A stretch of 64,000 nt of DNA from Chloroflexota bacterium (GTDB lineage: Bacteria > Chloroflexota > Anaerolineae > Anaerolineales > Villigracilaceae): assembly GCA_049323115.1 (NCBI GenBank), contig JBMOMP010000031.1, positions 36,018 to 100,017 on the forward strand. Reading direction: 5' to 3'. Shown piece after piece: positions 23,665-59,287 of this stretch (within the stretch, counting starts at the first letter, position 1; every line of letters starts with the position of its first letter). The notes below the pieces were generated by a model. That model saw only the letters and a list, made by a program, of their open reading frames with translations. It did no database searches and was not told the DNA's origin. The translations under genes and the position numbers were made by a program.

Positions 23665-23718
23665 CTCGCTACCCTGGGGTGAATTTGTCCGCTTTATGGA
23701 CAAATTCACCCCAGCGAG
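23665..23718 (+). terminator. Long hairpin downstream of the helicase gene (probable terminator)
   Basis: A 15-bp perfect stem, GGGGTGAATTTGTCC (23676-23690) with GGACAAATTCACCCC (23698-23712). An outer 6-bp stem pairs CTCGCT with AGCGAG. A TTTTT run follows 7 nt downstream. Confidence 0.5.
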
Positions 23719-33398: not shown

Positions 33399-33440
33399 GT
33401 GAGAACCGATTGTACCATTTCCAGTTGTTTCGACTCGTGT

Positions 33441-33449
33441 TGTATAATC
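33441..33449 (+). promoter_or_regulatory. Extended -10-like element for the multi-GAF kinase operon
   Basis: TGTATAATC lies 10-18 nt upstream of the ATG at 33459, so any leader would be very short or absent. No good -35 was seen. Confidence 0.35.
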
Positions 33450-33458
33450 AGGTTGTTT

Positions 33459-36089: not shown

Positions 36090-36098
36090 GTTTTTTAG

Positions 36099-38449: not shown

Positions 38450-39382
38450 TCAGGGTAGGTCAGGGGGAAAACTGGTTGGTGGGCGCAGCCACCCCAGCCA
38501 ACCACTCTTTGCAGGTTTGCGCACTTTGGCAGGCTTGTCGAAGTATATTAAGAGTATGCTTATGCTAAGGATGCCAGCACCAATCCATTGTGCCTGCGCA
38601 AGTTTCTCATGTAACCATGCAATGCTCAGTCCAATGGCGACAAGTAACTCCAATAATCCCAGAAGCGCGGTTTGCATCCCGCCAAGGTATTTTACACCTT
38701 GAAATAGTGCGAGCCGGGAAAGGAAAGTAACCAGCGTCAACCCAATTATGGGGTACCAACTCGCATTAGAAGGCAGTGGTTGGCCCACAAGAAGAAACAC
38801 TGGTACAACAACCAAACTCATAGCAATTAGCGTATATAGCGTGACAGTAGGAGCGGGGACGTCATAGAGTACACGTTGGTTGATAGGCAGGTGAAGCGCG
38901 TATAGGATCGATGCGAGTAGCATTTGACCAACACCAATCATGTCAATGTGGACTGATTCTGAATAAGTCAATAGAAAAACGGCAATCATCGCAAGAGTAA
39001 TGCGAAAAAGGGTTAATTTGTTAGGAGGTTGCGAGTCCAAAACCAGCCAAATTGCTACGAAGAGAGGGTAAAGGGAATAGAGCAATTGTCCAAGACTCGC
39101 ATCGATACGGCCCAGTGCCGAATAATATAATATAGAACCAACTCCATTGAATAATCCTGCCAATCCGCACCCAATTAACCCTGCTGGATATATGTAGAGA
39201 TACTCACGCCGAAATACAATCACGATAAACAATAACAAGAGGGCAGCCATCAATGTTCGGATACCAACTACTGCGAGAGGTGAAAACCCCAGGTTGATTG
39301 CTTGTTTGCCAAAAACAGGCGTAAAGCCAAGGAAGGTTGCAGACAGCAAAACAGCCCGGACCCCCGTTTTACGTTTTTGCAT
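38450..39382 (-). CDS. EamA/DMT family transporter (last gene of the large minus-strand operon)
   Basis: 310 aa with 10 TM segments in two EamA-like halves. It starts 11 nt downstream of the ThrC-REC gene. Confidence 0.8.
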   Translation of the reverse strand: MQKRKTGVRAVLLSATFLGFTPVFGKQAINLGFSPLAVVGIRTLMAALLLLFIVIVFRREYLYIYPAGLIGCGLAGLFNGVGSILYYSALGRIDASLGQLLYSLYPLFVAIWLVLDSQPPNKLTLFRITLAMIAVFLLTYSESVHIDMIGVGQMLLASILYALHLPINQRVLYDVPAPTVTLYTLIAMSLVVVPVFLLVGQPLPSNASWYPIIGLTLVTFLSRLALFQGVKYLGGMQTALLGLLELLVAIGLSIAWLHEKLAQAQWIGAGILSISILLIYFDKPAKVRKPAKSGWLGWLRPPTSFPPDLP

Positions 39383-39393
39383 GGGTTTTGACC

Positions 39394-41064
39394 TTAATCC
39401 AGTAAAGAGCGGACTTCATCAAGAAATTCATCGTTGAGAAAATCTCCTTTTTGCATCAACGATTGAATTTGCCCTTCCAGTCTGTTTTTTTCATCGGGTG
39501 TCAGTTCTTTGGCTGAAGCAACAATTACAGGAATATTTGCTGTTTCGGGGTTGCGCTTCAGGATATCAATGACTTCAAATCCATCCATTTCTGGCATGAT
39601 AAGATCCAGAATAAGCAGGTCCGGTCTTTCTTTCTCAATCAGTGTCAAGGCCGCTTTGCCGTTTTCGGCTTCGAAAATAGTGAAATCGCCTTGCGATTGT
39701 AATATCCTCCTGATCAAGCGGCGTGCATCAGCGCTATCATCTGCAATTGCAATGCGCGGGAATCCTTCTGGCGCCACACGGTTTAGCGCAGCGAGCAAGC
39801 CATCTTGTTGGGGTATCTCACCGCGGCTTGGCATTTCTACATCCAGCGACCAATCCTCTCCAAGCAACCATTGTTCGGCGGGCATCGTATGGCCTGTGCA
39901 ATTCACAACCACAGTATCTGTGGGCTTTATGATGCCATGTCGTACCAGCTTGAATAATCCTGCAAACGCGACCCCTGCAGCAGGTTCTACAGAGAGTCCT
40001 TCCATCTTTGCAACCACATGCATAGCTCGGAAAGCTTCCCCGTCGCTGACGCTTTCAAATATCCCCTGCGTTTCATCAACCTCCCGCTTCAGCAACTTGT
40101 AGGTTCGGCCTGGATCGCCAGTTGCAAGCGTCTCGATATGAGTTTGGGGTGTAGTAATCACAATTGGAGTTTCAAGGCCTTGTTTCCAACTTGTGACCAT
40201 CGGTGCGCACCCTTCTGCTTGGATGGCAGCAATTGCGGGTAAGCCATTGACAAAACCCATTTTGGAGAGTTCGCGAAATCCTTTAGAGACTCCTAATGGT
40301 CCCATGCCGCCACTGACGGATTGGATATACCAATCCGGCGTGCGCCACTTGGGTGGATTTTTACTGCCGTTCGAAGAATATCCGGGTTTCTGGGCAAGTT
40401 GTTCGGCCACTTCATAGGCAATCGTTTTCATTGCCTCTACAGAAGTAATTGTCCTTGCTCCCATATCATGGTACAAACCGCGCTGGCGAGCAAACTCGGA
40501 TGCCATTTGTTTGGTTTGGTCATAGGAGCCGGTTACTTTGACAACTTGGCTTCCATATAAGGCAATTTCGCGCATTTTAACCCCAGGCACCAAGCTGGTT
40601 ACAAACGCCCAGAGTTTTATTCCAGCACGTGCAGCGTACGCAGAGTATGAAATCGCTACATTCCCGGTAGATGCAGCAACCAATTCTGTGATACCAGCCT
40701 CTTTTAATGCTGCAATGGTGACAGCCGCTTGCCGGTCCTTGAATGAAGCCGTGGGTCCTTGACGCTCATCTTTGATATATAGGTTCGAACATCCAAGCAT
40801 CATACCCAAGTTAACTGCCTGGATGAGTGGCGTGCCGCCTTCTCCCAGGCTGATGTTGGCGTTAGGAGTGCGAACTGGTAATAACTCGTGATACCTCCAA
40901 AGATCGAACGTGCGTTCGTGTAGTTGCGCTCTCCAGATCTCCGCTACTGACGCCAGGTCATATTCCGCAACTCTCCACTGGCTGTTGCATTTGGGGCAAC
41001 TTGCAATTGTTGGATGGAATGGCGCTGCATGATTGCAGTCCAAACATCTGATTTGAAATGTCAC
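39394..41064 (-). CDS. Threonine-synthase-like PLP enzyme fused to a C-terminal response-regulator receiver domain
   Basis: Zn-ribbon: CLDCN...CPKCN. PLP-lysine motif: GPTASFKDRQAA. Also ASTGNVA. The REC domain reads RIAIADDSADARRLI...DLLILDLIMPEMDGFEVI...PVIVASAK. The GTG at 41064 lies 7 nt after AGGAGG. The ORF-track start at 41085 is a TTG. Confidence 0.8.
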   Translation of the reverse strand: MTFQIRCLDCNHAAPFHPTIASCPKCNSQWRVAEYDLASVAEIWRAQLHERTFDLWRYHELLPVRTPNANISLGEGGTPLIQAVNLGMMLGCSNLYIKDERQGPTASFKDRQAAVTIAALKEAGITELVAASTGNVAISYSAYAARAGIKLWAFVTSLVPGVKMREIALYGSQVVKVTGSYDQTKQMASEFARQRGLYHDMGARTITSVEAMKTIAYEVAEQLAQKPGYSSNGSKNPPKWRTPDWYIQSVSGGMGPLGVSKGFRELSKMGFVNGLPAIAAIQAEGCAPMVTSWKQGLETPIVITTPQTHIETLATGDPGRTYKLLKREVDETQGIFESVSDGEAFRAMHVVAKMEGLSVEPAAGVAFAGLFKLVRHGIIKPTDTVVVNCTGHTMPAEQWLLGEDWSLDVEMPSRGEIPQQDGLLAALNRVAPEGFPRIAIADDSADARRLIRRILQSQGDFTIFEAENGKAALTLIEKERPDLLILDLIMPEMDGFEVIDILKRNPETANIPVIVASAKELTPDEKNRLEGQIQSLMQKGDFLNDEFLDEVRSLLD

Positions 41065-41106
41065 GTTGCGGCCTCCTGGCAACAAGCATATTCCTATGAT
41101 TTTTTC

Positions 41107-44100
41107 TCAGTTATCTATGCGTTTGAGCGCATTTTCAATCGTGCCGATGAGTTCTTGTTCTTGCAAGGAACTTTTTTGTAATAACCTTTGTCCAAACATT
41201 TGAAGTTGGCCATATTGTTCGTTTGTCAAGTCGCTACTACTTACAACAACTACAGGGATATCCCTTAGTTCATTGTTTTCATGTAATTTCTCAAGAATCG
41301 AGAATCCATCTACATCTGGCATGAATAGATCCAAGACAATGGCATGTGGCGTCTTTGATTGAATGGCGTTCCACCCTGCCTGCCCACCTTCTGCTAGAAT
41401 AGGTTTGTACCTTCCTTGATTAGAAATCATCGTTCCTAACAGGCGCAGATCGTTTGGGTCGTCGTCTATGATTAGTATTTCTCGAATACTTCCATCGTTG
41501 TTTAGCCGATCTAGCGAAGAGAGTAAATCATCTTCTACGATTGGTTTGACCAGATAATCTGCTGCTCCTAAGCTAAAGCCTTTTTCTTCTTCCTCCAGGA
41601 TGCTGCAAATGATTATTGGGACACTGCGTGTTTCGGGGTCGGATTTTAGGTCATCGAGAACGTGCCAGCCGTCGTACCCTGGCATCATAATGTCCAATAT
41701 GACTGCAAAAGGTTTCAATTGTCTTACTCGTTCTTTTGCCCGTTGTGGATCTTTCAAACTGATTACTTGGAAACCTTTTGGCCTCAGATACCGCTCATAC
41801 AGGTTGAGGATTTGTGGGTCATCGTCAATAGTCAAGATTGTCTTGAAGCCGCTTTTTGAAATCTTTTGTTCTTTCACGAAGATAGGAACGGTAAAATAAA
41901 ATGAACTTCCTCTTCCTGGCATGCTGTGTATACCGATGCGACCATGATGCATTTGAACCAGATGATGGCAAATTGATAATCCAAGGCCTGACCCGCCAAC
42001 TTTGCGAGTTAATGACGCATCAACTTGTGAGAAGGGCTGGAACAGTTTGGCTTGATCTTCGGGGGAAATGCCTGGTCCAGTGTCGGTCACAGTGACGATT
42101 ACAGAAGATTGTCCAGTGGTCAGGTCGTCAACCTCGGCCCTTACGGTGATTTCTCCCTTTTCTGTGAATTTGGCTGCGTTAGAGAGCAAGTTAATCAATA
42201 CCTGCCTGATGCGCATGGGATCGGCGCGGACTGTTGGAAGATCAGTTGCAATCTCTTGTTTCAATGTAATTGGTTTGTCTTTGATCAAGCCAGCAGCAGT
42301 GGACATCACGCTTGTAACCAGATCGTCGATATTTACTTCGCTAAAGGAAAGTTCCATCTTGCCCGCTTCGATGCGGGAAAGATCAAGGATGTCGTTGATC
42401 AGACCGAGCAAATGTTGTCCGGCGTTGAAAATCGCTGTCAGGTCTTGTTGTTGTAGTTCTGTAACAGGACCGTCAATGCCTTTGAGGATGACGCGCGCAA
42501 ACCCAATGATCGAATTGAGCGGGGTGCGAAGTTCATGGCTCATATTTGCCAGGAATTGACTTTTTAGACGGTCAACCTCCCGCATTTCTTGAACGGCCTG
42601 CTGGGCGATGTTGTAAGAGCGCGCATTGTCAATACCAATGGCAATTTGGTCGGCCAATAGTTGAAGAATTGCTACGTCGTCTTGGGAAAAAGCATTTACT
42701 TCCGTGGACTGAATATCCAAAACGCCGATGATTCGGTTGCCAATGTGCAGGGGAATGGCGGCTTCGGCTCTTGTATCGGGTAGTAGAGGGTTCGGTTTGT
42801 GGATAGGATCAAGCGCTGTGTTGTTGATGACGATTGCGTTTCCGGTTTCGGTCGCTTGTCCTACGGTTGATTTGGAGCCGACTGTCAAGGAATGCCCACG
42901 TTGCTTCATCTGCTCTCCGGCTTCGCCGGTGGCTTCCTGTAGCACCGCATTGAAACCGGTCTCTTCGACAATGAAGATGGCAGCGTGGTAGTATCCAAAG
43001 CGTTCTTTTACCAGGTTTACAGCGCGCGAGAAGATGGCTTTCAAGTCCAGGGAAGATGTGACCAGGCGTCCGATCTCGGCTGAGGCGGCCAGGTACTCGT
43101 TTCGGCGTCGCAGCGCTTCTTCGTTTTGCTTGCGTTCGGTAATGTCGCGCGCGATGCTCATGATAACGGTTCTTCCCGCATAGGACACCAGGCTGGAACT
43201 GATCTCCACCGGGATGTCTTTTCCATCTTTCGTCCTGTGTGAAGTCTCGAAAACTTGGACCTTATCCCTGGGCATGTTACTGGCAAGGTTTTGGATCTGT
43301 TCAGGGATCAGATTTACATCTATGTCGGAGATTTTCATGGACAGGAGTTCTTCCCGGCTGTAACCCAGGGCGGTCATGGCGGCGTTATTGACGTCCAAAA
43401 TCGTCGTATCGAAATCAATGACCCAGATGGTATCGTTCATGCCATTGAGCAAATCCCGGTATTTTTCCTCGCTTTCTCGCAAGTTTTCTTCCGCACGCTT
43501 GCGTTCGGTGGTGTCTCGCGCAACCCAGAAGACGTGGTTTTCGGTCAGTTTTGAGACGCTGGCGTCGAACCAATATTCAGCGCCGTTTATTTCCAGCGGA
43601 TATTCGATTTCTTGCGATTGCCCGGTGTCAAGTGTAGTCCGAATTGTCGATAAGAAGGGTTCATGAAGGTTTTCGGGCAATACTTCTTGCAATGTCCGGC
43701 CAAGCATTTCTTCAGTGGGACGGAACAGGTGGTTTGGGTTTGTCTCTGCAATGCGCTCATACCTGCCTTCACGGTCATAGATAATGATGACATCTTCCAT
43801 GGCGGCGAACAGCGCTTTTAGTTCGGACTCGGACTGTTGTGTTTGTTGGAAAAGACGGGCATTTTCAATGGCAAAGCCGATTTGCCGCCCAATTGATTGC
43901 GTCAGGCTAATCACATTTTCCGACATTGGCTCAGGGTTTTCGTTGAAAACACATAATGTGCCAACGATTTGCCCTTTTGCTTCCAGGGGGACGCCCAAAT
44001 ATGCAAACAATCCGTTGTTAATTAGCCCTGTGAAATCAACAGGCGTCCCTTCCCGCGTGTCAGAAACAGCCAATGTAGATTGCGATTTGAATACATGGTC

Positions 44101-45282
44101 GCACGGAGTCCCTGCCAGTCCCGCGGCTTGCAGTTTTTCTAGAACAGGTAATGGCAAGTTTTGGTGTGTAAATAATTCCAACTGACCCGAGGCTTCATTC
44201 TTGAGTGAAATGAGACCGCAACTGAAACCAAGCATATCCAAGATTTGTGCAAGGAGCGTTTCCAAGAGTTGCGTTAATTCCAGTGTTTGGCTGGAAGAGA
44301 AGATGATTCGGTTGAGGGCGCTTAATTCCTCAGCCCGAGCCTGTGTCTCTTGGAATAACCTGGCGTTGTCTAGGGCAACTGCAGCCTGGTTGGATAAAAT
44401 CATAGCCAGGTTCAATTCTTGTTGGGAGAACTGTCTTTCCTGGTAAAGTTCTTCGAGATGGATCATCCCTGTTGCACGGCCCTGCATGATGAGCGGCAAA
44501 CGCACCTGTGATTTGACACCATATTTCCTCATGTAGTCCTGTTCGGCGCTATCCAGGCTCGGATCATTAATTTGCAGGATGACAGGTTGCAACGTTGCCA
44601 GCATTTGTTGCGTGGCCGGGTAGTCTGCTGGGTCTGTTTCCAGGTTTGTCCATAATTCGTCTTCGGGGCGTTTTTTGTTTTCTGGTATGTAATCAACAAT
44701 GGTGCGCATTTTCCCTTGAGGGGTGAGCAAGAGAATAGAACATTCTGTTACCTGGAAAATTTGTATGAAGTATTTTGCAATCAGGTTCGCAATTTCTTCC
44801 AGTTGTAATGGCAACTCTGCCAGGTTCTGGCTTACGTTGAGTAGTGTTGTCAATTCTTGAACACGCTGTTGCGTTTCCTGGAACAGGCGCGCATTTTCCA
44901 TCGCAAGGGACAGTTGGTCGGCTACTTGTTTGACCAGCAATTGTTCTTCGGCGCCCCAAGTGCTTTTTCCTGATTCATCAACGACCTTGAGCGTCGACCA
45001 ATTCTTTTCGTCTATTCGGAAAGCGGTAGAAAGCATTGCAGTGGGGGAAACCTGCGTTGTAACGGGAGCAAGCCTGTCGTCGGCTTGAAGCGTCATCCCC
45101 GTCCCTGATAAAATTTCGGATATTTCATCCGAAAGGCTCATGGGAACGGACGGAAGGCTGGGCGCCTGTTTGGGCTTTCGACCGCCGCTTCTGCCCGGAC
45201 GTTCGGCTTGCGTCTCTGCTTCGTTGCTTTTTATCTCGTCGAAAAGTTTGTCAAGCCTGTTGTTTATCTTTTTCTTCGACAT
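41107..45282 (-). CDS. Giant hybrid sensor histidine kinase (half-GAF module, multiple GAF, 2 PAS, GAF, HisKA, HATPase_c, 2 REC)
   Basis: H-box: MSHELRTPLNSIIGF. HATPase_c: GGSGLGLSICHHLVQMHHG. The two receivers read ILTIDDDPQ...ILDIMMPGYDG and ILIIDDDPN...VLDLFMPDVDG. PAS-like segments are present. Start taken at ATG 45282 (MSKKKINN...), because the TTG at 45399 would overlap the ParA gene by about 150 nt. Confidence 0.85.
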   Translation of the reverse strand: MSKKKINNRLDKLFDEIKSNEAETQAERPGRSGGRKPKQAPSLPSVPMSLSDEISEILSGTGMTLQADDRLAPVTTQVSPTAMLSTAFRIDEKNWSTLKVVDESGKSTWGAEEQLLVKQVADQLSLAMENARLFQETQQRVQELTTLLNVSQNLAELPLQLEEIANLIAKYFIQIFQVTECSILLLTPQGKMRTIVDYIPENKKRPEDELWTNLETDPADYPATQQMLATLQPVILQINDPSLDSAEQDYMRKYGVKSQVRLPLIMQGRATGMIHLEELYQERQFSQQELNLAMILSNQAAVALDNARLFQETQARAEELSALNRIIFSSSQTLELTQLLETLLAQILDMLGFSCGLISLKNEASGQLELFTHQNLPLPVLEKLQAAGLAGTPCDHVFKSQSTLAVSDTREGTPVDFTGLINNGLFAYLGVPLEAKGQIVGTLCVFNENPEPMSENVISLTQSIGRQIGFAIENARLFQQTQQSESELKALFAAMEDVIIIYDREGRYERIAETNPNHLFRPTEEMLGRTLQEVLPENLHEPFLSTIRTTLDTGQSQEIEYPLEINGAEYWFDASVSKLTENHVFWVARDTTERKRAEENLRESEEKYRDLLNGMNDTIWVIDFDTTILDVNNAAMTALGYSREELLSMKISDIDVNLIPEQIQNLASNMPRDKVQVFETSHRTKDGKDIPVEISSSLVSYAGRTVIMSIARDITERKQNEEALRRRNEYLAASAEIGRLVTSSLDLKAIFSRAVNLVKERFGYYHAAIFIVEETGFNAVLQEATGEAGEQMKQRGHSLTVGSKSTVGQATETGNAIVINNTALDPIHKPNPLLPDTRAEAAIPLHIGNRIIGVLDIQSTEVNAFSQDDVAILQLLADQIAIGIDNARSYNIAQQAVQEMREVDRLKSQFLANMSHELRTPLNSIIGFARVILKGIDGPVTELQQQDLTAIFNAGQHLLGLINDILDLSRIEAGKMELSFSEVNIDDLVTSVMSTAAGLIKDKPITLKQEIATDLPTVRADPMRIRQVLINLLSNAAKFTEKGEITVRAEVDDLTTGQSSVIVTVTDTGPGISPEDQAKLFQPFSQVDASLTRKVGGSGLGLSICHHLVQMHHGRIGIHSMPGRGSSFYFTVPIFVKEQKISKSGFKTILTIDDDPQILNLYERYLRPKGFQVISLKDPQRAKERVRQLKPFAVILDIMMPGYDGWHVLDDLKSDPETRSVPIIICSILEEEEKGFSLGAADYLVKPIVEDDLLSSLDRLNNDGSIREILIIDDDPNDLRLLGTMISNQGRYKPILAEGGQAGWNAIQSKTPHAIVLDLFMPDVDGFSILEKLHENNELRDIPVVVVSSSDLTNEQYGQLQMFGQRLLQKSSLQEQELIGTIENALKRIDN

Positions 45283-46036: not shown

Positions 46037-46076
46037 ACGCATTCTCCGTGCCCGGTTTTATCAATTTGAGCTGTTT

Positions 46077-48104: not shown

Positions 48105-48107
48105 GCC

Positions 48108-50576: not shown

Positions 50577-50599
50577 ACAAACTCGTTTCGATACTTAAC

Positions 50600-52564: not shown

Positions 52565-54218
52565 CCTGGGGGGTGGTCAATCGTACTTCGGCCTCTTGTA
52601 AATTTAACGCGCGTTGTAACTCTTGCGCTGCCGTGCGTAGAACGGTCTCCAAATCCAGAGTCTCTCTTATTCGGCTGCTTATATCTGTCACAGCCTGCTC
52701 GCGCAAGGCGCTTTCACGCGCCTGCTTGATCAATCGGGCGTTATCGAGTGCCAGTGCAGTTTGCGTGGCTATTTCATTTGCTAACTGGCGCTCATTACTC
52801 GTCCAGTCTGGCTGGCTGGGTTTTCGTTGGAGGGTAATTCTTCCGATCTTTTGCCCGCGGAACAATATAGGTATGGACATTGTATAGCGCTCATTGCTGG
52901 GAATTGCCTCCTGTTGCAATGAGCGAACGCCGGTCTGTGAATAATGATAACCAGGTATTTTGGAACTTAGTTGCTCTTGCCAATCCTGGCGAGCAAATTC
53001 CGTTGACATCATCTCCAGTTCGTGAATTAGAACTTGGCTTTCAGTGATCAAACGGACATTTTCTATTGCAACGGCTATTTGATCTGCCAGGGTTTGAAGG
53101 ATATCTACATCATCCTGATTGAATGCTTGAGGTTCGGTGGATTGAACATCCAGAACGCCAATCAGCCTGTCTTGTGCTATGAGCGGAATTGCAATTTCTG
53201 AGCGGGTTTTAGGGAGCTCCGGGTTGTTGAAAAACACAGCATCTTCCCCAACATCCAGCGCAATGCGTGGTCTTTTTTCTGCCGCTACAAAGCCCACGAT
53301 CCCTTCTGTGCCGATGCGCAACCGATGCCCACGTTCTATCATCCGCCTACCGCCCTCTGAAGAGGTTGCCTGTAGGACGGCATAGTCTTCTTTTTCTGAA
53401 ATCAGGAAAATACCGGCATGGTAAAAGCCAAATTCTTTGGAAATCAATTGCGCTACATTGGGAAGCAGGACACTCAAATCTTTGAACTCCGCCGCCTGCT
53501 GGGCGATATAGGCGGCAGCGTTTAACTGATTGGCTTTTTTCTCGAGTTCCTTTGTTCGCTCTGCAACGCGTTGTTCCAAAGACGTGCGTTCTTCCTCAAG
53601 GGTTCGAAGGGCTTGGGTAAGGTCTTCGTTTGACTCTATGAAACCAAGTTGAAGTCTACGCAAACCGGCAACAACGATAACGGAAAGGAAAAGTTGTGTT
53701 GTTATGCTGCTGACCCAGTCTTCTAAATTTCCGGCGTTTGCTGTTGTATCTAAGAGCTGGTAATAGCCTCCCAGTATGGCCATTGCACCGGCGATGAGCG
53801 TGGCTATGCTCACTGCAATAGCAAGGATTCCAGCCCTGGGCGAAAAAAGCAGAGTAGTAATAGCAACAAACGTAAGCAAATAGATATCTGCGTTGCTAGT
53901 GATCCCGTTTTCGAGGATGTCGCCGATGCCAATTGCCAGCAACAAGAATAAGATTACTCCGCCTCGGACTTGATAAGGAAATGGAATGAAAATAACTGCA
54001 AGCAAAATGACATAACTTACAACGTAAACGATGAACAGGCTTTGGTCTGATATACTGAAGAAAGCGGAGGTGAGCGCAATCAAGCCAAAGATAGCTGCCC
54101 CGGCGAATAGGGAGTGCAAGAAACGGTTCCGCCATTCTTGTGGAGAAGTCAATTCTGATTCTGGGGTGTCAATTTGTTCGGGGCGTTTCATAGCATTTAC
54201 ATAATTTCCATCAATCAT
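52512..54218 (-). CDS. Receptor-like protein P4: polytopic (about 6 TM) N-terminus / signalling helix / GAF / half-GAF module / conserved tail (no HAMP seen)
   Basis: A hydrophobic N-terminal third is followed by LEQRVAERTKEL and the GAF core FGFYHAGIFL...RSEIAIPL...GVLDVQS...LADQIAVAIENVRL. Tail: REQAVTDISSRIRETLDLETVLRTAAQELQRAL. Confidence 0.8.
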   Translation of the reverse strand: MIDGNYVNAMKRPEQIDTPESELTSPQEWRNRFLHSLFAGAAIFGLIALTSAFFSISDQSLFIVYVVSYVILLAVIFIPFPYQVRGGVILFLLLAIGIGDILENGITSNADIYLLTFVAITTLLFSPRAGILAIAVSIATLIAGAMAILGGYYQLLDTTANAGNLEDWVSSITTQLFLSVIVVAGLRRLQLGFIESNEDLTQALRTLEEERTSLEQRVAERTKELEKKANQLNAAAYIAQQAAEFKDLSVLLPNVAQLISKEFGFYHAGIFLISEKEDYAVLQATSSEGGRRMIERGHRLRIGTEGIVGFVAAEKRPRIALDVGEDAVFFNNPELPKTRSEIAIPLIAQDRLIGVLDVQSTEPQAFNQDDVDILQTLADQIAVAIENVRLITESQVLIHELEMMSTEFARQDWQEQLSSKIPGYHYSQTGVRSLQQEAIPSNERYTMSIPILFRGQKIGRITLQRKPSQPDWTSNERQLANEIATQTALALDNARLIKQARESALREQAVTDISSRIRETLDLETVLRTAAQELQRALNLQEAEVRLTTPQDASTDSKRAISGGQTRE

Positions 54219-56139
54219 TGGTTAATTCAATCGTAGCTTCTGTCGCATCAAGGGTTATTCCAAGCTCGCGAATTGCTGTTTGCAAAATACCTTCCATGGT
54301 CGTTGAAGTCCAAATTTTGTTGCTAATGTCTGCAATCGTTTTCTCTCGGTTGGCGATGTTTTGTGTTTCCTCGAGCAAGCGTGCATTCTCTAGTGCCAAA
54401 GCCGTTTGTGTGGCAATTGCTTGCATCCAGGTTTGTTCTTCTGGGGTAACGTTTTCTCCCCTTTCAAGCCGGATTTTTCCGATAACCTGGTCGCGCAAGG
54501 CTATTGGAATTTCAACAGCATGTTCGTTGTCCGTTTCCGTGTCATCGCCAATTGATAGTGTCGTTTCTCCTCGAGGCAGGTTGGATTCCCCCCATGCTTG
54601 GCGGAGATATTGCCGCTGGATGTTGCGTAGTTCTTGCAAGTTTCGTTGGGTTTCTTGGAAAAGGTGGGCATTTTCGAGTGCAATGGCGACTTGATTGGTC
54701 ATATTTTGGAGAGTTTCGATGTCCTGCTGGCTAAAAGCTGCTTCTTGTGTTGATTGCACATCTAGCGCCCCAAGGATCCTGTCGCCTATGATCAGTGGTA
54801 AGGCTGTTTCGGAACGAGTATAAGGCAACAGGGGGTGCTCGAACCGTGCATTATCTTTGTCTGTATCCAATGCTACTTGCGCTTCTCTTCTTTTGATAGC
54901 GCGCCCGATTATCGTTTGCTCGTTGATTTCCAAGCGATGTTTGCTGTTTTTCATAACTTGGCCAGCTTCGCCGGTGGCTTCTACGAGTTCTGCCCAGCGG
55001 TTGCTTGAATCAACCAGATAAATGGCGGTGTAATAATGTCCAAATTGCTCTCGAATTAGGCTGACTATACTGCTCATCAATTTATCTGGGTCGAGGATGG
55101 ATGTGGCTACCCGCCCGACCTCGTTAATTGCTCTAAGTTGAGCAGTTCTGTCTTCTACTTGCCTTTCCAGGGTTTCTTGCAGTTCATCTAGCCGGGAAAT
55201 CATGCGGTTAAAGTAAATGGTTACTTGTGCAATTTCGTCAGATGCGCTAATCCGAGCCCGTTGCTTCAGGTTGCCTTGTTCGACCTTCTTGAAAACGCTT
55301 ATCATTTCGTTCAGGGGACGGGTGAGGGAGATCGAAAACAGAGAGACGAGCCCAAGTCCAAGGAAGATCGCAAAAGCGCTTACAAGGATGGACTGTACCT
55401 GTAATTCGGATAAAACCTGGGTGGAGCCAATTTCCTCGTAAAGTACTCTGAAAGTTTGGTGGTATCCAATTGGCGCAACGAGCAAAATGCTGAGGACGAT
55501 CATGGCGGGTACCACTATGTAAATTCGCCCCAAGAGGGTAAACCCGCTTGCGCCTGCCAGTTGCGTATCAAAATCTTTTGGCAGAAGGGCATGGCGGACA
55601 GAGACGAGAAGTCGATCAAGAATACTTACATCGAGCGTGACAATGGATAAGGTAATGATCGTTATGCTAATTACGATGTAAACTAGTTGGTCATACGTGG
55701 CGTGGAGGTAAAAATACGAGTAAGACAAAAGTGATATACCCACTACAATAAAATTAATGCAAGATGCTATGATTGCATATTTCCAAGTCCAGGTGCCGGC
55801 TTGTTGCCATGCTGTTAGTTCATCTACAGATCCAGGAATTAGCGAGCTCCCCTTTTTATATCGTTGCAGGCCGCGGAAAGCCTTTTTATTAAGAAAGTAT
55901 GAAGAAAACCATACAATGGCATTCCCAAGCAAGGCTAAGAATCCGGCTAATCTTGTAAGTTGGTCAAACTCTGCAGGTGAAAACTCGGCGTTGATTTGAG
56001 CAATGATGATAACCGGAATAGCGACAAAATTTGATCCCATCTGTGCCACAAAACTTGACAGCACGAGGTAGTACCCGCCCGACCATTTTAGAACCTGGCT
56101 CAGAAATCTTTGAATAGAACTTTCGCTTTGCGATTCCAT
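54211..56139 (-). CDS. Receptor-like protein P5: polytopic N-terminus / HAMP / GAF / half-GAF module / conserved tail
   Basis: HAMP: LTRPLNEMISVFKKVEQGNLK...SDEIAQVTIYFNRMISRL. S-helix: LERQVEDRTAQL, then the GAF core. Tail: REKTIADISNKIWTSTTMEGILQTAIRELGITL. Start chosen at ATG 56139, with AAGGA upstream. The ORF track extends to a TTG at 56199, and another ATG lies at 56187. Confidence 0.75.
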   Translation of the reverse strand: MESQSESSIQRFLSQVLKWSGGYYLVLSSFVAQMGSNFVAIPVIIIAQINAEFSPAEFDQLTRLAGFLALLGNAIVWFSSYFLNKKAFRGLQRYKKGSSLIPGSVDELTAWQQAGTWTWKYAIIASCINFIVVGISLLSYSYFYLHATYDQLVYIVISITIITLSIVTLDVSILDRLLVSVRHALLPKDFDTQLAGASGFTLLGRIYIVVPAMIVLSILLVAPIGYHQTFRVLYEEIGSTQVLSELQVQSILVSAFAIFLGLGLVSLFSISLTRPLNEMISVFKKVEQGNLKQRARISASDEIAQVTIYFNRMISRLDELQETLERQVEDRTAQLRAINEVGRVATSILDPDKLMSSIVSLIREQFGHYYTAIYLVDSSNRWAELVEATGEAGQVMKNSKHRLEINEQTIIGRAIKRREAQVALDTDKDNARFEHPLLPYTRSETALPLIIGDRILGALDVQSTQEAAFSQQDIETLQNMTNQVAIALENAHLFQETQRNLQELRNIQRQYLRQAWGESNLPRGETTLSIGDDTETDNEHAVEIPIALRDQVIGKIRLERGENVTPEEQTWMQAIATQTALALENARLLEETQNIANREKTIADISNKIWTSTTMEGILQTAIRELGITLDATEATIELTND

Positions 56140-56158
56140 AAAAGTGTTTCCTTGGCCG

Positions 56159-58300
56159 TTATGAGGCGGTTTCGTTGCCGTCGTCATTTTTAATGCCAAT
56201 TGTAATTTGCGCTTTGCGCGCGCTCGTTACTCGACTTAATTCACCAACGGTGGTCATCAAGATTGTTTGCATATCTGTGGACTGGCGGATTTTGCTTGTG
56301 ATTTCATATAAAAGCCGCTCACGTTCGGCTTGCCTTCGTATTTGCTCCAAGAGCCGAGCATTGGCAATAATGGCTGCCAAGCTGCCCGCCAGTGTTCCGA
56401 GCATTTCTTCGTCGTTATCTGTATAGGCTGCAATCTGTTCGCTTTCAACATTTAATACACCCAATAGTTCATTTCGAAAGATGAGAGGGATTGTCATCTC
56501 AGATCGGGTGTTGGGGCTTAATTGGATATAGCGAGTATCTTCGGCAATGTCATCGATGCGCAACGATTTCCGATGCGCAGCCACCCAACCGGTAATACCC
56601 GTTCCAATTGGAATAATGCGATTTACCACGTCCTCTGAATAACCGACCCATGCTTTAGGGATCAAATTCTTTCGCTCAAGGTCAGTCAACATGATTAAGA
56701 CCCGGTCTCCGCCCAGGCTGACTTGCAACCCTTTGACAGCGCTTTCCAACGCCTCGTCCAAGGTCGTGCCCGACGCAGCAGAGGTCGTGATGTGATGTAA
56801 CAATCGGTGTTGGGATAAGTGTTCTTGCGTTTCAGCAAAAAGTTCCGAATTGTTAACGGCAATAGCCAACTGGTCGGCGAGAATTTGCAAAGTATCCAAG
56901 TCGGACGGCCCGAACGAGAATGGAACTACGCTTTGTACATCCAAGACGCCCAGAGTGTGGTCGCCAATTTTCAGCGGAATAGCGGCTTCGGCGCGCGTAT
57001 CAGGCAACAGGGGGTTAGGTAGATGCGTGGCATCTTTAGCAGTATCGTTGACAACCAGAGGGTCGCCTTGTCCTGCCACGAAGCCAACAATTGATTTTGA
57101 GCCTATAGCCAGTTTATGTCCGCTGCGTTTCATCTGGGCGCCGGCCTCTCCTGTTGCTTCGCGGATGATTACATTCTTGCCCGTGTTGTCAACCAAGAAA
57201 ATGGCTGCGTGATAGAAATTCAGTCGTTCGCGGATAAGATTGACTGCTTTCAGGAGTAGTTCGTCTAAATTCAAGGCGCTGCTGATGTCGCGGGCAATCT
57301 GTGCTGCTGTCTGGATTTGAAACACCTGGCGGTGGCTTTCATCTAGGAGCATCTTGCTGTGAAGGATGCCGGCAACTTGTTGAGCAAGCATGTACAGGGT
57401 TTGAATGTCTTTTTGGCGAAACATTCCATCCCGTTCCAAGTCTTGTACGATGAATGCACCAATTACCTGGTTGGCAATCATCAGCGGAACCCCCATCCAT
57501 GATCTGGCTGGCTTGCCAATCACTTTTGCGCCTAGAGACTCGGCCTGTCTTTCAACATCTTCATTAAGCAACAGCGGCTGTTTGGTGTGAATTAGTATAG
57601 TAATCAGGCCTTCACCGAGAGGAAATGTTTCGATTGAACTGATTTTGCCGTCTTCATAGGAGTAAGGAATTCGAATAGATGCGGTTTTTTCATCATACAG
57701 TGCAGCAATAAACGCATAATCACCGATTAGACGGCTTACTTGTTCGTGGATTGCACCGAAAACGCCTGCAATGTTGTCGGAGACACTTGCCTGGCTTATT
57801 GCTGTCAAGGCTTCTAATTGCGCGACATGTAAATTAGTTTGCTGTGTGGCTTCTGTTTGGTCGATTATTATTGTGGCAAGATTCACTATATTGATGCAGG
57901 GTTGAATATCTTCTGTTGTAAGTGTCTGGCTTTCCTTGGCCCCTACGAGAACGAGTCCGAGCATCTCACCTTTCCCCGGAAAAGCGACCAGGGCAACTTT
58001 TTTTACTTGAAAGTGGGCAATGAACTGAAAAATGCCTGATAGGCCTACACTGTCATCTGGAAGTGTGTGAAATTTGATATCTCCCCTAAGATGCTTTTCT
58101 AGCAGACTGATGTTGACTGGAATTTTTTGGGGGAGTTCTTCTTCTGTTGTATGTTCGATATTTGAAACCGAAATTAACTCAAGAGCCTCGTTACCTATTT
58201 CGAACACAGCGGTAAAATAGCATAACCCCTCTAGCGCCTTTGCAAGGTGTTTCAGCGTTCGAGACAATACATCTGGATTCACGGTTAACTGAGCTCCCAT
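56159..58300 (-). CDS. Receptor-like protein P6: soluble, about 4 tandem GAF domains plus the same conserved tail
   Basis: There are no TM segments. The third GAF shares the family core (LNFYHAAIFL...TRAEAAIPL...GVLDVQS). Tail: RERLLYEITSKIRQSTDMQTILMTTVGELSRVT. Confidence 0.8.
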   Translation of the reverse strand: MGAQLTVNPDVLSRTLKHLAKALEGLCYFTAVFEIGNEALELISVSNIEHTTEEELPQKIPVNISLLEKHLRGDIKFHTLPDDSVGLSGIFQFIAHFQVKKVALVAFPGKGEMLGLVLVGAKESQTLTTEDIQPCINIVNLATIIIDQTEATQQTNLHVAQLEALTAISQASVSDNIAGVFGAIHEQVSRLIGDYAFIAALYDEKTASIRIPYSYEDGKISSIETFPLGEGLITILIHTKQPLLLNEDVERQAESLGAKVIGKPARSWMGVPLMIANQVIGAFIVQDLERDGMFRQKDIQTLYMLAQQVAGILHSKMLLDESHRQVFQIQTAAQIARDISSALNLDELLLKAVNLIRERLNFYHAAIFLVDNTGKNVIIREATGEAGAQMKRSGHKLAIGSKSIVGFVAGQGDPLVVNDTAKDATHLPNPLLPDTRAEAAIPLKIGDHTLGVLDVQSVVPFSFGPSDLDTLQILADQLAIAVNNSELFAETQEHLSQHRLLHHITTSAASGTTLDEALESAVKGLQVSLGGDRVLIMLTDLERKNLIPKAWVGYSEDVVNRIIPIGTGITGWVAAHRKSLRIDDIAEDTRYIQLSPNTRSEMTIPLIFRNELLGVLNVESEQIAAYTDNDEEMLGTLAGSLAAIIANARLLEQIRRQAERERLLYEITSKIRQSTDMQTILMTTVGELSRVTSARKAQITIGIKNDDGNETAS

Positions 58301-58734
58301 ACCGGTTCGCCATTGAGAATTCGCCGGATTTGTTCAGGAAAACGATCTGGATCTAGAGGCTTTCCAAGAAAGCCATCGAAGCCCGAGTCGCGAGCCTTAC
58401 TAAGCTGTTCTTCGCTGGCTTCCGCGGTGACGGCTACTATTGGGATAGATTTTAGATGCTCGGATGCGCGAATTTTTTTAAGTGCCCCGTATCCATCTTC
58501 ATATGGCAGGCGGATATCCATCAGGATGAGGTCAAGGCGGGGAAGAGTGTCTGCATATTCCACTACCTCGTATCCCGACGTCTTCCATTCGCAGTGGATA
58601 CCCATATAGCCGAGCATACGGGCAATAAGGACAAAGTTGGATACATTGTCCTCAACCACCAGAACTGTCAGGTCCTTTGGAATGGCAACCCTTTTGGACA
58701 GGGTATCAGAGGTCTTTACGTCTGGATCTGCCAT
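58285..58734 (-). CDS. Single-domain CheY-like response regulator (REC-2)
   Basis: LVVEDNVSNF...LILMDIRLPYEDG...IPIVAVTA...GFDGFLGKP. It overlaps the P6 start by 16 nt. Confidence 0.85.
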   Translation of the reverse strand: MADPDVKTSDTLSKRVAIPKDLTVLVVEDNVSNFVLIARMLGYMGIHCEWKTSGYEVVEYADTLPRLDLILMDIRLPYEDGYGALKKIRASEHLKSIPIVAVTAEASEEQLSKARDSGFDGFLGKPLDPDRFPEQIRRILNGEPVWELS

Positions 58735-58735
58735 T

Positions 58736-59110
58736 TCAGCTCCTCAAAAAATGTTCGATGTGTTCCGTGAGCAGGTCAATGTCAATAGGCTTTTGTATAT
58801 ACCCATCGCATCCCGCTTCAAACGATTTTTCCCGGTCGCCGCGCATCACATTGGCTGTGATTGCAATGATGGGAATTTTGCTGAGACCCGGTATTTTCCT
58901 TATTTCGGTGGTTAAGGTGTAACCGTCTTTGTCTGGCATGTTGATGTCCATCAGGATCAAATGAGGCTTTGTGGTTTCCAATATTTTCAGCGCTTGCATA
59001 GCGTTTGCGGCCTCTAACATATTATATCCTTCGGCTGCCAGTACGCGCCGTACGAGTGTCCGGTTGTCGCTGTTGTCTTCAACGTAAAGGATTGTGATGT
59101 TTTTTGTCAT
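58736..59110 (-). CDS. Single-domain CheY-like response regulator (REC-1; first gene of the operon)
   Basis: The internal ATG at 59110 is preceded by GGAGG. It reads MTKNITILYVEDNSDN...LILMDINMPDKDG...IPIIAITANV...GCDGYIQKP. The ORF-track start at 59188 lies inside the tRNA terminator hairpin. Confidence 0.85.
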   Translation of the reverse strand: MTKNITILYVEDNSDNRTLVRRVLAAEGYNMLEAANAMQALKILETTKPHLILMDINMPDKDGYTLTTEIRKIPGLSKIPIIAITANVMRGDREKSFEAGCDGYIQKPIDIDLLTEHIEHFLRS

Positions 59111-59174: not shown

Positions 59175-59210
59175 AAAAACAAAAGCACGGCTTCTCAAGA
59201 AACCGTGCCT
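59175..59210 (-). terminator. Rho-independent terminator downstream of tRNA-Gly
   Basis: The minus strand reads AGGCACGG-TTTCTTGAGAAG-CCGTGCT followed by TTTTGTTTTT. Confidence 0.6.
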
Positions 59211-59214
59211 GATA

Positions 59215-59287
59215 AGCGGGTGATGGGATTCGAACCCACGAAATGGTAGCTTGGGAAGCTACTGCCTTACCGCTTGGCGACACCCGC
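59215..59287 (-). tRNA. tRNA-Gly (anticodon CCC)
   Basis: Reverse complement: GCGGGTG TC GCCAAGCGGTAAGGC A GTAGC TTCCCAA GCTAC CATTTC GTGGG TTCGAAT CCCAT CACCCGC T. It folds as a cloverleaf with G1:C72, C2:G71, G3:C70 and U73 (Gly identity elements). The anticodon loop is TT-CCC-AA. No CCA is encoded, and the variable loop appears to be 6 nt. Confidence 0.85.

What the first reader, a model, noticed from the sequence alone, without database searches (positions are those of the whole stretch)
38450..59110. A ~20.7-kb, 12-gene operon that looks like a chemosensory array without CheA, CheW or a methyl-accepting domain
Twelve minus-strand genes are packed with overlaps or gaps of at most 34 nt. 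In order they are two CheY-like single receivers, then six paralogous receptor-like proteins (P6-P1), an orphan ParA-like ATPase, a ~1390-aa hybrid histidine kinase, a ThrC-like enzyme fused to a receiver, and an EamA exporter.

The six receptors differ in their input modules: soluble 4xGAF, two polytopic membrane types, single-Cache, double-Cache and 4-helix-bundle. P1, P2 and P5 show a recognisable HAMP domain and P3 probably has one. None was seen in P4, and P6 has none. All six share the same downstream core. It consists of an LExRVxERT signalling helix, a highly conserved GAF (FGFYHxGIFL...TRSExALPL...GxLDVQSTE...LADQxAxAIENARL), a half-GAF module and a common tail. None carries a kinase, MA, GGDEF or other recognisable output domain.

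Variable sensors on a constant signalling core is the design logic of MCP families. A ParA-like ATPase embedded in the operon recalls the ParC/PpfA ATPases that position chemoreceptor clusters. I infer that the six receptors feed the single large hybrid kinase. The kinase would then signal to the two CheY-like proteins and to the ThrC-REC enzyme. I do not recognise this architecture as a described system.
Basis: partly seen in the sequence, partly recalled or inferred. Interest (0 to 1): 0.85.

Follow-up and report, generated by a model that had tools for sequence, protein, structure and literature searches.

The report
Kinase-less GAF sensor battery with ParA-tagged kinase
A gene cluster conserved across the Anaerolineales (filamentous Chloroflexota) encodes six sensor proteins with no output domain beside one large histidine kinase, a ParA-type positioning ATPase, three receiver proteins and an amino-acid-type enzyme and exporter; this wiring is not described in the papers I could search.

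Summary
Window 38450-59110 holds twelve tightly packed minus-strand genes with the stated domain content. Pfam, NCBIfam and an AlphaFold model searched against the PDB found no MCP-signal, CheW, CheA, HPt, GGDEF or other output domain in the six receptors.

The cluster is conserved across the order. In 58 of 59 species-representative genomes the order is tail-bearing receptor, ParA, hybrid kinase, ThrC-like-REC. EamA follows in 55 of 55. A convergent OmpR / REC-HK / GAF-HK trio (window 33270-38428) follows in 43 of 55. REC1-REC2 plus a P6-like protein head the operon in dozens of metagenome contigs.

New points:
- The kinase starts inside the 3' end of parA. In 60 of 65 loci it begins with a conserved basic peptide, then a Pro-rich variable linker. 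This is the signature of ParA/MinD partner proteins, so ParA is probably not orphan.
- The kinase's DHp-proximal GAF is the same subtype as the receptors' core GAF.
- The receptor "tail" is a truncated GAF start and is always C-terminal (256 of 256).
- REC1 and REC2 resemble receivers of hybrid kinases more than CheY.

Receptor-to-kinase coupling, clustering and the output remain inferred. I rate it an undescribed variant of two-component signalling, not a chemotaxis system.

The parts
58736..59110 (-). REC1, a stand-alone receiver (124 aa from the ATG at 59110)
   Evidence: Pfam Response_reg 100 bits. The acidic pocket (ED), the phospho-acceptor Asp (LILMD), Thr and Lys are visible in the sequence. 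The best NCBIfam matches are receivers of hybrid kinases. It precedes REC2 in most related loci.
58285..58734 (-). REC2, a stand-alone receiver that is very highly conserved
   Evidence: Pfam Response_reg. It is 75-89% identical in 446 metagenome relatives and is followed by a P6-like protein and then tail-bearing receptors.
56159..58300 (-). P6, a soluble multi-GAF receptor (unassigned N-terminus, GAF, core GAF, complete third GAF, tail at 56198-56347)
54211..56199 (-). P5, a polytopic membrane receptor (HAMP, core GAF, reduced GAF, tail at 54226-54372)
52512..54218 (-). P4, a MASE11 membrane receptor without HAMP (core GAF, reduced GAF, tail at 52581-52724)
   Evidence: Pfam MASE11 52.5 bits.
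50600..52564 (-). P3, a two-TM receptor with an unassigned periplasmic domain (HAMP, core GAF, reduced GAF, tail at 50645-50794)
48108..50576 (-). P2, a dCache_1 receptor (HAMP, core GAF, reduced GAF, tail at 48135-48281)
   Evidence: Pfam dCache_1 94 bits.
46077..48104 (-). P1, a 4HB_MCP receptor (HAMP, core GAF, reduced GAF, tail at 46113-46262)
   Evidence: The AF2 model of aa 320-675 has pLDDT 85 and gave only GAF-type PDB matches.
45251..46042 (-). ParA/Soj-type ATPase
   Evidence: Pfam AAA_31 155 bits and CbiA. The deviant Walker A KGGVAKTT is visible in the sequence. The closest solved structures are 8ray (ParA family) and Thermus Soj 1wcv. It lies directly upstream of the kinase in 58 of 59 genomes.
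41107..45282 (-). Hybrid histidine kinase (basic peptide, disordered linker, half-GAF, 2 GAF, 2 PAS, core-type GAF, HisKA, HATPase_c, 2 REC)
   Evidence: The start codon lies 32 nt inside parA. The H-box SHELRTPL is visible. No HPt was found.
45238..45282 (-). N-terminal basic peptide of the kinase (MSKKKINNRLDKLFD), the candidate ParA-interaction tag
   Evidence: The motif M[SP]KK..[KN][KR][LI][DN].[LI]F occurs in 60 of 65 loci. Mean net charge of the first 15 aa is +4. The start lies 20-38 nt inside parA. It is followed by a linker of 32-149 aa with 15.6% Pro.
44860..45042 (-). Conserved half-GAF (beta-hairpin plus alpha5) that opens the folded part of the kinase
   Evidence: partial match of the hairpin HMM at ORF aa 140-177.
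42613..43068 (-). DHp-proximal GAF of the kinase, the same subtype as the receptors' core GAF
   Evidence: The core-GAF HMM scores 173 bits here, 190-272 bits in the receptors and 44 bits in the next best GAF in the window.
39394..41085 (-). ThrC-like PLP enzyme (N-terminal zinc ribbon plus PALP) fused to a C-terminal receiver
   Evidence: Pfam PALP 214 bits and Response_reg. NCBIfam threonine synthase PRK08197 scores 257.8 bits, below its cut-off of 303. The closest PDB entries are ThrC 2zsj, 2d1f and 1uim. It is 68-94% identical in at least 584 species genomes.
38450..39382 (-). EamA-family (DMT) transporter
   Evidence: Pfam EamA 106 bits, two repeats. It follows the PLP enzyme in 55 of 55 genomes.
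37652..38428 (+). OmpR-type response regulator, convergent with the operon and part of the conserved neighbourhood
   Evidence: Pfam Response_reg plus Trans_reg_C. Present in 43 of 55 genomes.
36099..37691 (+). REC-GAF-HisKA-HATPase kinase in the conserved neighbourhood
33270..36089 (+). GAF-GAF-HisKA-HATPase kinase in the conserved neighbourhood (start codon uncertain)

Best explanation
This is an order-wide, conserved multi-sensor phosphorelay locus of the Anaerolineales.

Shown:
- Six paralogous sensors carry different input modules on one constant cytoplasmic core: S-helix, conserved GAF, long helix, reduced GAF, then a truncated GAF start. They have no enzymatic or DNA-binding output.
- They are encoded between two stand-alone receivers and a parA gene.
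- parA is translationally coupled to a soluble hybrid histidine kinase.
- The kinase opens with a conserved basic peptide, a disordered linker and a half-GAF. It also carries the receptors' GAF subtype next to its DHp.
- A ThrC-like PLP enzyme fused to a receiver, and an EamA transporter, always follow.

Inferred:
1. The sensors signal in trans, by protein contact, to the single hybrid kinase. They would act as detachable input modules.
2. The ParA ATPase binds the kinase's N-terminal peptide and distributes the kinase, and whatever is docked to it, along the nucleoid of these long filamentous cells. This is how ParA/MinD ATPases treat their partner proteins.
3. Phosphoryl groups flow from the kinase to REC1, REC2, the enzyme's receiver and possibly the REC-HK/OmpR branch.
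4. The end result would be controlled synthesis and export of an amino-acid-like compound, plus transcription.
For: Domain content and absence of any output.

Constant core and terminal tail. In relatives, 256 of 256 complete tail-bearing ORFs end a median of 11 aa after the tail.

Sensor diversity: 146 clusters at 50% identity among 204 receptors. Of these, 137 were scanned and gave MCP/HK-type input domains.

Synteny:
- receptor, ParA, HHK in 58 of 59 genomes; EamA in 55 of 55; convergent trio in 43 of 55
- the same order in relatives whose P1 homologue is only 41-47% identical
- REC1, REC2, P6-like, then receptors at the 5' end

ParA-kinase link:
- the kinase start codon lies 20-38 nt inside parA, and the basic motif is present in 60 of 65 loci
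- the linker is 32-149 aa, 15.6% Pro, with hydrophobic fraction 0.16 against 0.34 in the rest of the kinase
- the published rule is that ParA/MinD partners use a positively charged, disordered N-terminus, and that ParB stimulates ParA through its N-terminal peptide (PMC10241942 sections 17-18; PMC7333895 section 11)

Shared GAF subtype between the receptors and the kinase's DHp-proximal GAF.

In the one locus without ParA (L065), the separate receptors, the basic peptide and the half-GAF are also absent, and a P6-like sensor is fused in frame to the kinase.

Residual co-variation (controlling for PALP-REC, EamA and the kinase core): HHK N-terminal module with ParA, partial r 0.52; with the adjacent receptor tail, 0.36; none with the kinase's own core GAF.
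Against: No test here shows physical contact between receptor and kinase, or between ParA and the peptide.

The L065 fusion is a single protein from a single contig. It could be a strain-specific deletion or an assembly collapse between paralogous GAF sequences.

The co-varying segments (P1 tail, parA, 5' end of the kinase gene) are contiguous on the DNA. Local recombination explains the mirror-tree signal as well as co-evolution does.

The tail is not a unique docking domain. The same junction sequence is the ordinary inter-GAF junction in thousands of poly-GAF proteins and multi-GAF kinases. AF2 places its last helix with high confidence in the monomer, which suggests it packs in cis.

There is no HPt, so relay from the kinase's own receivers to the other receivers has no obvious carrier.

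A single transcript is not shown. Promoter and terminator scans are at background.
Confidence: 0.45

Rival explanations
1. The sensors do not act on the hybrid kinase by contact. Their conserved GAF, shared with the kinase's DHp-proximal GAF, binds one common small ligand, for example the product or substrate of the ThrC-like enzyme or a nucleotide. The sensors would then buffer or sense that ligand in parallel with the kinase, or regulate another partner such as the enzyme, the transporter or ParA.
For: The core GAF is the most conserved part of every receptor, and the same subtype sits in the kinase. A full GAF fold is predicted, closest to the PtsP, Nlh2 and fRMsr GAFs. The tail is an ordinary GAF junction, not a dedicated docking domain. 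The enzyme and exporter are the most conserved genes of the locus.
Against: HAMP and S-helix modules upstream of the GAF imply that the GAF is driven by the transmembrane input rather than being the primary sensor. No ligand can be named. The cNMP-type NKFDE motif is not evident in the sequence (this motif is recalled from memory). This reading does not explain why receptors, ParA and the kinase's N-terminal module occur together in 58 of 59 loci and are absent together in the remaining one, L065.
Confidence: 0.2
2. Coupling works through pseudo-kinase-like heterodimers. A receptor protomer pairs with a kinase protomer through the homologous core GAF and the helices that flank it. The receptor's long post-GAF helix would pack against the kinase DHp, as RetS does with GacS. 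No docking on the kinase N-terminus is involved.
For: The same GAF subtype lies directly upstream of the DHp in the kinase and upstream of a 50-residue helix in the receptors. Tandem-GAF and GAF-PHY proteins, the closest structural matches, dimerise in parallel along such helices (the dimer geometry is from established knowledge).
Against: Distances between receptor core GAF and kinase core GAF show no residual correlation (partial r -0.15). This model gives no role to the conserved N-terminal half-GAF of the kinase.
Confidence: 0.15
3. Strict form of the first reader's view: this is a chemotaxis-like array. REC1 and REC2 act as CheY-type switches on a motility apparatus, and ParA plays the ParC/PpfA role.
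For: MCP-type input modules are present (4HB_MCP, dCache, HAMP). There are two single-domain receivers, and a ParA sits in the operon.
Against: There is no MCPsignal, CheW, CheA/HPt, CheR or CheB in the locus. REC1 and REC2 score higher against hybrid-kinase receivers than against CheY. The invariant downstream genes are an enzyme and a transporter, not motility genes. No motility gene was seen in the flanks examined.
Confidence: 0.1
4. The genes are only a co-located collection of signalling genes with no joint function.
For: The window lineage shows a GC drop over the cluster, so the block may simply move as an island.
Against: Order, orientation and overlaps are kept in 58 of 59 species-level genomes, down to 41% receptor identity. 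The parA-kinase overlap is conserved to within a few nucleotides.
Confidence: 0.03

Closest known systems
Chemosensory arrays (MCP-CheW-CheA), including those positioned by the ParA-like ATPases ParC/ParP or PpfA/TlpT
   Same: Several paralogous receptors carry MCP-type inputs (4HB, dCache, HAMP) on a constant cytoplasmic module. They are encoded with one kinase, single-domain receivers and a ParA-family ATPase.
   Different: No MCP signalling hairpin, CheW, CheA (HPt/P2/P5), CheR or CheB is present. The constant module is GAF-based. The kinase is a HisKA-type hybrid kinase. The candidate ParA partner is the kinase itself. The invariant downstream genes are an enzyme and a transporter.
ParA/MinD cargo-positioning pairs (ParA-ParB, MinD-MinE, McdA-McdB, PomZ-PomXY)
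   Same: The ATPase gene lies immediately upstream of, and overlaps, the gene of a protein with a conserved, positively charged N-terminal peptide followed by a disordered linker. The ATPase has an intact deviant Walker A and is Soj-like.
   Different: The putative cargo is a hybrid histidine kinase. I found no paper in this library (seven full-text searches) that describes such a cargo. No centromere-binding protein and no MinE or McdB homologue is present.
Stressosome (RsbR paralogues / RsbS / RsbT)
   Same: The design logic is the same: paralogous sensors with variable N-terminal inputs and a constant C-terminal domain that together control one kinase.
   Different: The constant domain is STAS, not GAF. 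The kinase is a Ser/Thr kinase and the sensors are cytoplasmic. There is no sequence relationship.
Multikinase networks with sensor-only or pseudo-kinase partners (RetS/LadS-GacS, DivL-CckA)
   Same: Additional sensor proteins modulate one hybrid histidine kinase by direct contact instead of by phosphotransfer.
   Different: Those partners are histidine-kinase homologues with DHp and CA domains. Here the sensors end in GAF modules and have no DHp or CA at all.
Tandem-GAF and GAF-PHY signalling modules (phytochromes, PDE2/5/6, CyaB)
   Same: The predicted fold of the receptor core is GAF, long helix, then a second GAF-like domain, and these are the best Foldseek matches.
   Different: Those modules are fused to an effector (kinase, cyclase or phosphodiesterase). 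Here the chain stops after the first helices and strand of a further GAF.

Membership tests
Chemosensory (Che) system | Receptors carry the methyl-accepting signalling domain (Pfam MCPsignal) | tested here: not met
   No MCPsignal hit at E<=0.1 in P1-P6. None in 137 relatives' N-terminal regions. The core plus tail fold matches only GAF.
Chemosensory (Che) system | CheA kinase (HPt + dimerisation + HATPase + CheW-like domain) and a CheW adaptor | tested here: not met
   The kinase is HisKA + HATPase_c + 2 REC. No Hpt or CheW domain occurs in any of the 15 genes.
Chemosensory (Che) system | CheY-type response regulator | tested here: inconclusive
   REC1 and REC2 are single-domain receivers with intact phospho-acceptor residues. 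They score 60 and 42 bits on the CheY models (cut-offs 189-200) and 85-102 bits on hybrid-kinase receivers.
Two-component / phosphorelay system | HisKA with a conserved His, plus HATPase_c | tested here: met
   HisKA 73 bits and HATPase_c 107 bits, both above cut-off. The H-box SHELRTPL is visible.
Two-component / phosphorelay system | Receiver domains with the acidic pocket, phospho-acceptor Asp, Thr/Ser and Lys | tested here: met
   Response_reg is above cut-off in REC1, REC2, HHK (twice), PALP-REC, REC-HK and OmpR. For REC1, REC2, both HHK receivers and PALP-REC the residues were read in the sequence; they were not read for REC-HK or OmpR.
Two-component / phosphorelay system | HPt carrier for a multistep relay from a hybrid kinase | tested here: not met
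   No Hpt hit anywhere in the locus. A carrier elsewhere in the genome cannot be excluded.
ParA/MinD ATPase family | Deviant Walker A KGGxxK[ST] and the family fold | tested here: met
   KGGVAKTT is present. AAA_31 155 bits and CbiA 76 bits are above cut-off. The closest structures are ParA 8ray and Soj 1wcv.
ParA/MinD ATPase family | An adjacent partner protein with a positively charged, disordered N-terminus | tested here: met
   Met at the sequence level only: the conserved basic peptide occurs in 60 of 65 loci and the genes overlap; the linker is Pro-rich and variable. Binding and ATPase stimulation are not testable here.
ParC / PpfA chemotaxis-cluster ParA subfamily | Subfamily-specific sequence, and location in a che operon with ParP or TlpT | not tested
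   No subfamily model was available. The operon context (che genes) is absent. No NCBIfam ParA/MinD/BcsQ model reaches its cut-off.
Threonine synthase (ThrC) | PLP fold-type II domain with the Schiff-base Lys and the ASTGN loop | tested here: met
   PALP 214 bits. SFKDR and ASTGN align with ThrC 2zsj, 2d1f and 1uim.
Threonine synthase (ThrC) | Equivalog-level score and the conserved phosphate-binding loop (NSxNPxRxEGQKT in Thermus ThrC; residue roles recalled from memory) | tested here: not met
   PRK08197 scores 257.8 against a cut-off of 303, and TIGR00260 scores 143.5 against 167.1. The loop reads DMGARTITSVEAMKT in the alignment.
EamA / DMT transporters | Two EamA repeats | tested here: met
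   EamA 106 bits, 2 stretches.
GAF domain proteins | GAF fold | tested here: met
   GAF, GAF_2 and GAF_3 are above cut-off in all six receptors. In the AF2 model, the GAF part matches PtsP and Nlh2 GAFs with TM-score 0.81-0.84, normalised to the target.

The most novel reading that the evidence does not exclude
This could be a third kind of bacterial receptor-kinase assembly, beside sensor kinases and MCP-CheW-CheA arrays. Kinase-less transmembrane GAF receptors would dock through their truncated GAF stub (alpha1-alpha2-beta1) onto the incomplete half-GAF (beta-hairpin-alpha5) that opens the hybrid kinase. This would be split-domain complementation. The resulting clusters would be spaced along the filament by a dedicated ParA that reads a ParB-like tag on the kinase. 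The pathway's output would be phosphorylation-gated synthesis and export of an amino-acid-derived compound by the ThrC-like-REC enzyme and EamA, possibly a cell-to-cell signal in filamentous Anaerolineales.
Probability: 0.15. Interest if true: 0.92.

Novelty: new variant of a known kind. Interest (0 to 1): 0.72.

Why it matters
Output-less HAMP-GAF proteins are annotated only as 'GAF domain-containing protein', yet they are very numerous. There were 7921 hits at E<=1e-10 among the 8000 candidates scored for P1, and 13,054 clusters at 50% identity share the junction profile. Placing them in a conserved operon with one kinase gives them a testable role as detachable input modules. If a ParA-family ATPase positions a histidine kinase through a ParB-like N-terminal tag, the known cargo range of ParA/MinD systems would extend to two-component kinases. 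A receiver-controlled ThrC-like enzyme that is always paired with an EamA exporter would be a new type of response-regulator output. It is also a candidate route for regulated metabolite release in a group that is abundant in wastewater sludge, sediments and soils.

Tried and rejected
1. Cryptic output domain. Pfam at E<=0.1, NCBIfam, and AF2 plus Foldseek against the PDB found only GAF.

2. Named family membership. No NCBIfam model reaches its cut-off for any of the proteins.

3. Operon proof. Promoter and terminator scans inside the cluster are at shuffle level (24 found against 21 expected, and 26 against 26), so they are uninformative.

4. Leader RNA. The strong hairpin upstream of REC1 is the terminator of a tRNA-Gly(CCC) gene, not an attenuator.

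5. Integrative-island signature. There is no direct repeat of the tRNA 3' end. The direct repeats in the region are only paralogous coding segments.

6. Rosetta-stone argument. The L065 receptor-kinase fusion has no second example in the 5.8-billion-protein collection, so I give it little weight.

7. Mirror-tree co-evolution. There is a positive residual signal among the receptor tail, ParA and the kinase N-terminus. It is confounded because these segments are physically adjacent, so it is not decisive.

8. The tail as a unique docking domain. Rejected: the same sequence is the ordinary inter-GAF junction in poly-GAF proteins and multi-GAF kinases.

9. A ParB in the loci, for comparison with the kinase peptide. 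None was found. The resemblance to the ParB N-terminal GLG[RK]GLxAL[LF] motif rests on memory only.

10. Literature. Seven full-text searches found no description of this architecture.

Full report
**Observation**

ORF listing and translation confirm twelve minus-strand genes between 38450 and 59110. Their gaps are at most 34 nt and several overlap. Pfam gives the following:
- EamA
- PALP + REC
- a hybrid kinase with 3 GAF, 2 PAS, GAF, HisKA, HATPase_c and 2 REC
- a ParA-type ATPase (AAA_31 / CbiA)
- six receptors: P1 is 4HB_MCP-HAMP-GAF, P2 is dCache_1-HAMP-GAF, P3 is HAMP-GAF, P4 is MASE11-GAF, P5 is HAMP-GAF and P6 is multi-GAF
- two single-domain receivers

No MCPsignal, CheW, Hpt, GGDEF or other output domain appears at E<=0.1. 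NCBIfam places none of the proteins in a named family.

The P3 periplasmic domain has no Pfam hit. P6 has three detectable GAFs plus an unassigned 160-aa N-terminus. P4's membrane module is MASE11.

**Anatomy of the constant core**

The six receptors align from the S-helix onward. An AF2 model of P1 residues 320-675 (pLDDT 85) shows the following elements in order:
- a complete GAF
- a 50-residue helix
- a reduced GAF-like module (beta-beta-alpha-beta-beta)
- a 45-residue helix
- one more helix
- about 20 unstructured residues

Foldseek against the PDB returns only GAF, GAF-PHY and tandem-GAF proteins, so there is no cryptic effector.

The tail is the alpha1-alpha2-beta1 start of a further GAF. 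A profile of it hits only the six receptors in the window. Across 1.84 billion representative proteins, however, the same junction recurs up to 18 times per protein in poly-GAF chains, and internally in multi-GAF kinases. It is therefore a truncated GAF stub and not a novel domain. Its position is nonetheless strict. In 256 of 256 complete tail-bearing ORFs from related loci it ends the protein, a median of 11 residues before the stop.

**Conservation**

The window matches a Chloroflexota MAG.

P1-like proteins number in the thousands. All are annotated only as GAF domain-containing, and nearly all come from Anaerolineales.

The PALP-REC fusion is 68-94% identical over its full length in at least 584 species-representative genomes.

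I ran tblastn of the window proteins against 80 such loci:
- tail-bearing receptor, ParA, hybrid kinase, PALP-REC in 58 of 59 loci with enough upstream flank
- EamA in 55 of 55
- a convergent OmpR regulator, REC-GAF kinase and GAF kinase in 43 of 55

The last three genes correspond to window 33270-38428, so the conserved unit is larger than the finding.

The same order holds in loci whose P1 homologue is only 41-47% identical.

A scan with REC2 (75-89% identical in 446 metagenome hits) shows REC1, REC2, a P6-like protein and then further receptors at the 5' end. ParA was never reached within 10 kb, so arrays of at least four or five receptors are usual.

Input modules are very diverse. There are 146 clusters at 50% identity among 204 receptors. 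I scanned 137 of them and found HAMP in 79, dCache_1 in 34, MASE11 in 18, Cache_3-Cache_2 in 10, GAF in 8 and 4HB_MCP in 4.

**The ParA link**

In 60 of 65 loci the kinase ORF starts 20-38 nt inside the 3' end of parA, with the motif M[SP]KK..[KN][KR][LI][DN].[LI]F. The mean net charge of the first 15 residues is +4.

A linker of 32-149 residues follows. It is hypervariable, 15.6% proline, and has less than half the hydrophobic content of the rest of the protein. Then comes a conserved beta-hairpin-alpha5 half-GAF.

A conserved basic peptide on a disordered N-terminus, encoded next to the ATPase gene, is the published hallmark of ParA/MinD partner proteins (PMC10241942; PMC7333895).

The ATPase has an intact deviant Walker A and is closest to Soj-type ParAs.

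I therefore read the kinase as ParA's partner or cargo. This is inference from sequence pattern only. From memory, the peptide also resembles the ParB N-terminal GLG[RK]GLxAL[LF] motif. I could not test that, because no ParB lies in the loci.

**The receptor-kinase link**

The evidence is indirect:
- The operon structure is conserved.
- The kinase's DHp-proximal GAF belongs to the receptors' core-GAF subtype (173 bits, against 190-272 in the receptors and 44 for the next GAF).
- In the one locus that lacks ParA (L065), the separate receptors, the basic peptide and the half-GAF are also missing, and a P6-like sensor is fused in frame to the kinase body.
- Distance matrices show residual correlation among the adjacent receptor's tail, ParA and the kinase's N-terminal module after controlling for three other genes. 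The kinase's own core GAF shows none.

Each point has a weakness. The fusion is a singleton in the protein collection. The co-varying segments are adjacent on the DNA, so recombination blocks could give the same pattern.

**Output**

REC1 and REC2 have all phospho-acceptor residues. They resemble receivers of hybrid kinases more than CheY.

The PLP enzyme keeps the Schiff-base lysine and the ASTGN loop of threonine synthases. It falls below the equivalog cut-offs, and it differs in the loop that, as I recall, binds the substrate phosphate in Thermus ThrC. Its substrate is therefore open.

Its extreme conservation and its invariable pairing with an EamA transporter suggest receiver-gated synthesis and export (or uptake) of an amino-acid-like compound. 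A transcriptional branch would run through the convergent kinases and the OmpR regulator. No HPt was found.

**Comparison and novelty**

The locus works like a receptor battery feeding one kinase, as in chemosensory arrays or the stressosome. It fails every defining test of a Che system.

It is a two-component system by membership, combined with a ParA/partner pair.

Seven full-text literature searches found no description of this architecture.

I classify it as an undescribed variant of two-component signalling. There is a minority chance (about 0.15) that it is a truly new receptor-kinase assembly based on split-GAF docking.

**Uninformative or negative checks**

- Promoter and terminator scans are at background.
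- The hairpin upstream of REC1 is the terminator of a tRNA-Gly(CCC) gene.
- There is no att-like repeat.
- The flanks at 23.9-33.5 kb encode unrelated housekeeping genes (TrmFO/GidA-like, M28 peptidase, HflX and others) and two further two-component sets unrelated to this locus.

Noticed in passing
window 59215-59287 (-), hairpin at 59183-59210: A tRNA-Gly(CCC) gene with a strong terminator hairpin lies on the same strand, about 100 nt upstream of REC1. The same tRNA occurs upstream of REC1 on the same strand in 9 of 16 related loci. In about five of them it lies within a few hundred nt (for example L095 and L105); in the others it is 1.7-7.5 kb away. This leaves only about 70 nt for the operon's own promoter, or implies read-through.
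   Followed up: partly
window 33270-59188 against its flanks: GC is 0.49 across the whole signalling cluster, 0.59 upstream (1-33000) and 0.55 in rpoB. Most relatives also show lower GC in the cluster than in the flank: 10 of 12 loci on the upstream side and about half of those on the downstream side. No tRNA-derived direct repeat was found. This is compatible with exchange of the whole block between Anaerolineales lineages.
   Followed up: partly
L065 5680-10657 (MFD02416.bin.2.106, 1.78-Mb contig): A variant locus has REC1 and REC2 followed directly by a 1366-aa kinase. The N-terminus of that kinase is a polytopic membrane region plus P6-like GAFs. It has no ParA, no separate receptors and no basic peptide. 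It is a singleton in the protein collection.
   Followed up: yes
L001 6561-7754: A periplasmic solute-binding protein gene (Peripla_BP_6 / ANF_receptor) is embedded among the receptor genes, next to a dCache receptor. This hints at indirect ligand sensing.
   Followed up: no
P0242 (3792 aa, 18 junction repeats), P0244 (1787 aa, 10 GAFs), P0246; also ~1300-aa HAMP-multi-GAF proteins P0391-P0509: Giant output-less poly-GAF proteins end in the same truncated GAF stub. The ~1300-aa proteins are annotated as Anaerolineales or Chloroflexi wherever a source name is given; P0242, P0244 and P0246 come from a library without taxonomy. Their context was not examined.
   Followed up: partly
L055 (labelled Blastopirellula marina MAG), L083 (Lewinellaceae MAG), P0089 (Thaumarchaeota MAG): Contigs that carry this cluster at about 70% identity to the Anaerolineales versions sit in bins of unrelated phyla. 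Mis-binning is the likely cause.
   Followed up: no
window 23906-25817 (+) and 29837-31075 (-): There are further two-component genes unrelated to the cluster: a HisKA_3 kinase with a LuxR-type regulator, and a lone HisKA kinase.
   Followed up: no
window 21559-23709: Two long ORFs overlap on opposite strands: 697 aa on the plus strand and 578 aa on the minus strand. The minus-strand ORF has no Pfam hit. Which one is real was not resolved.
   Followed up: no
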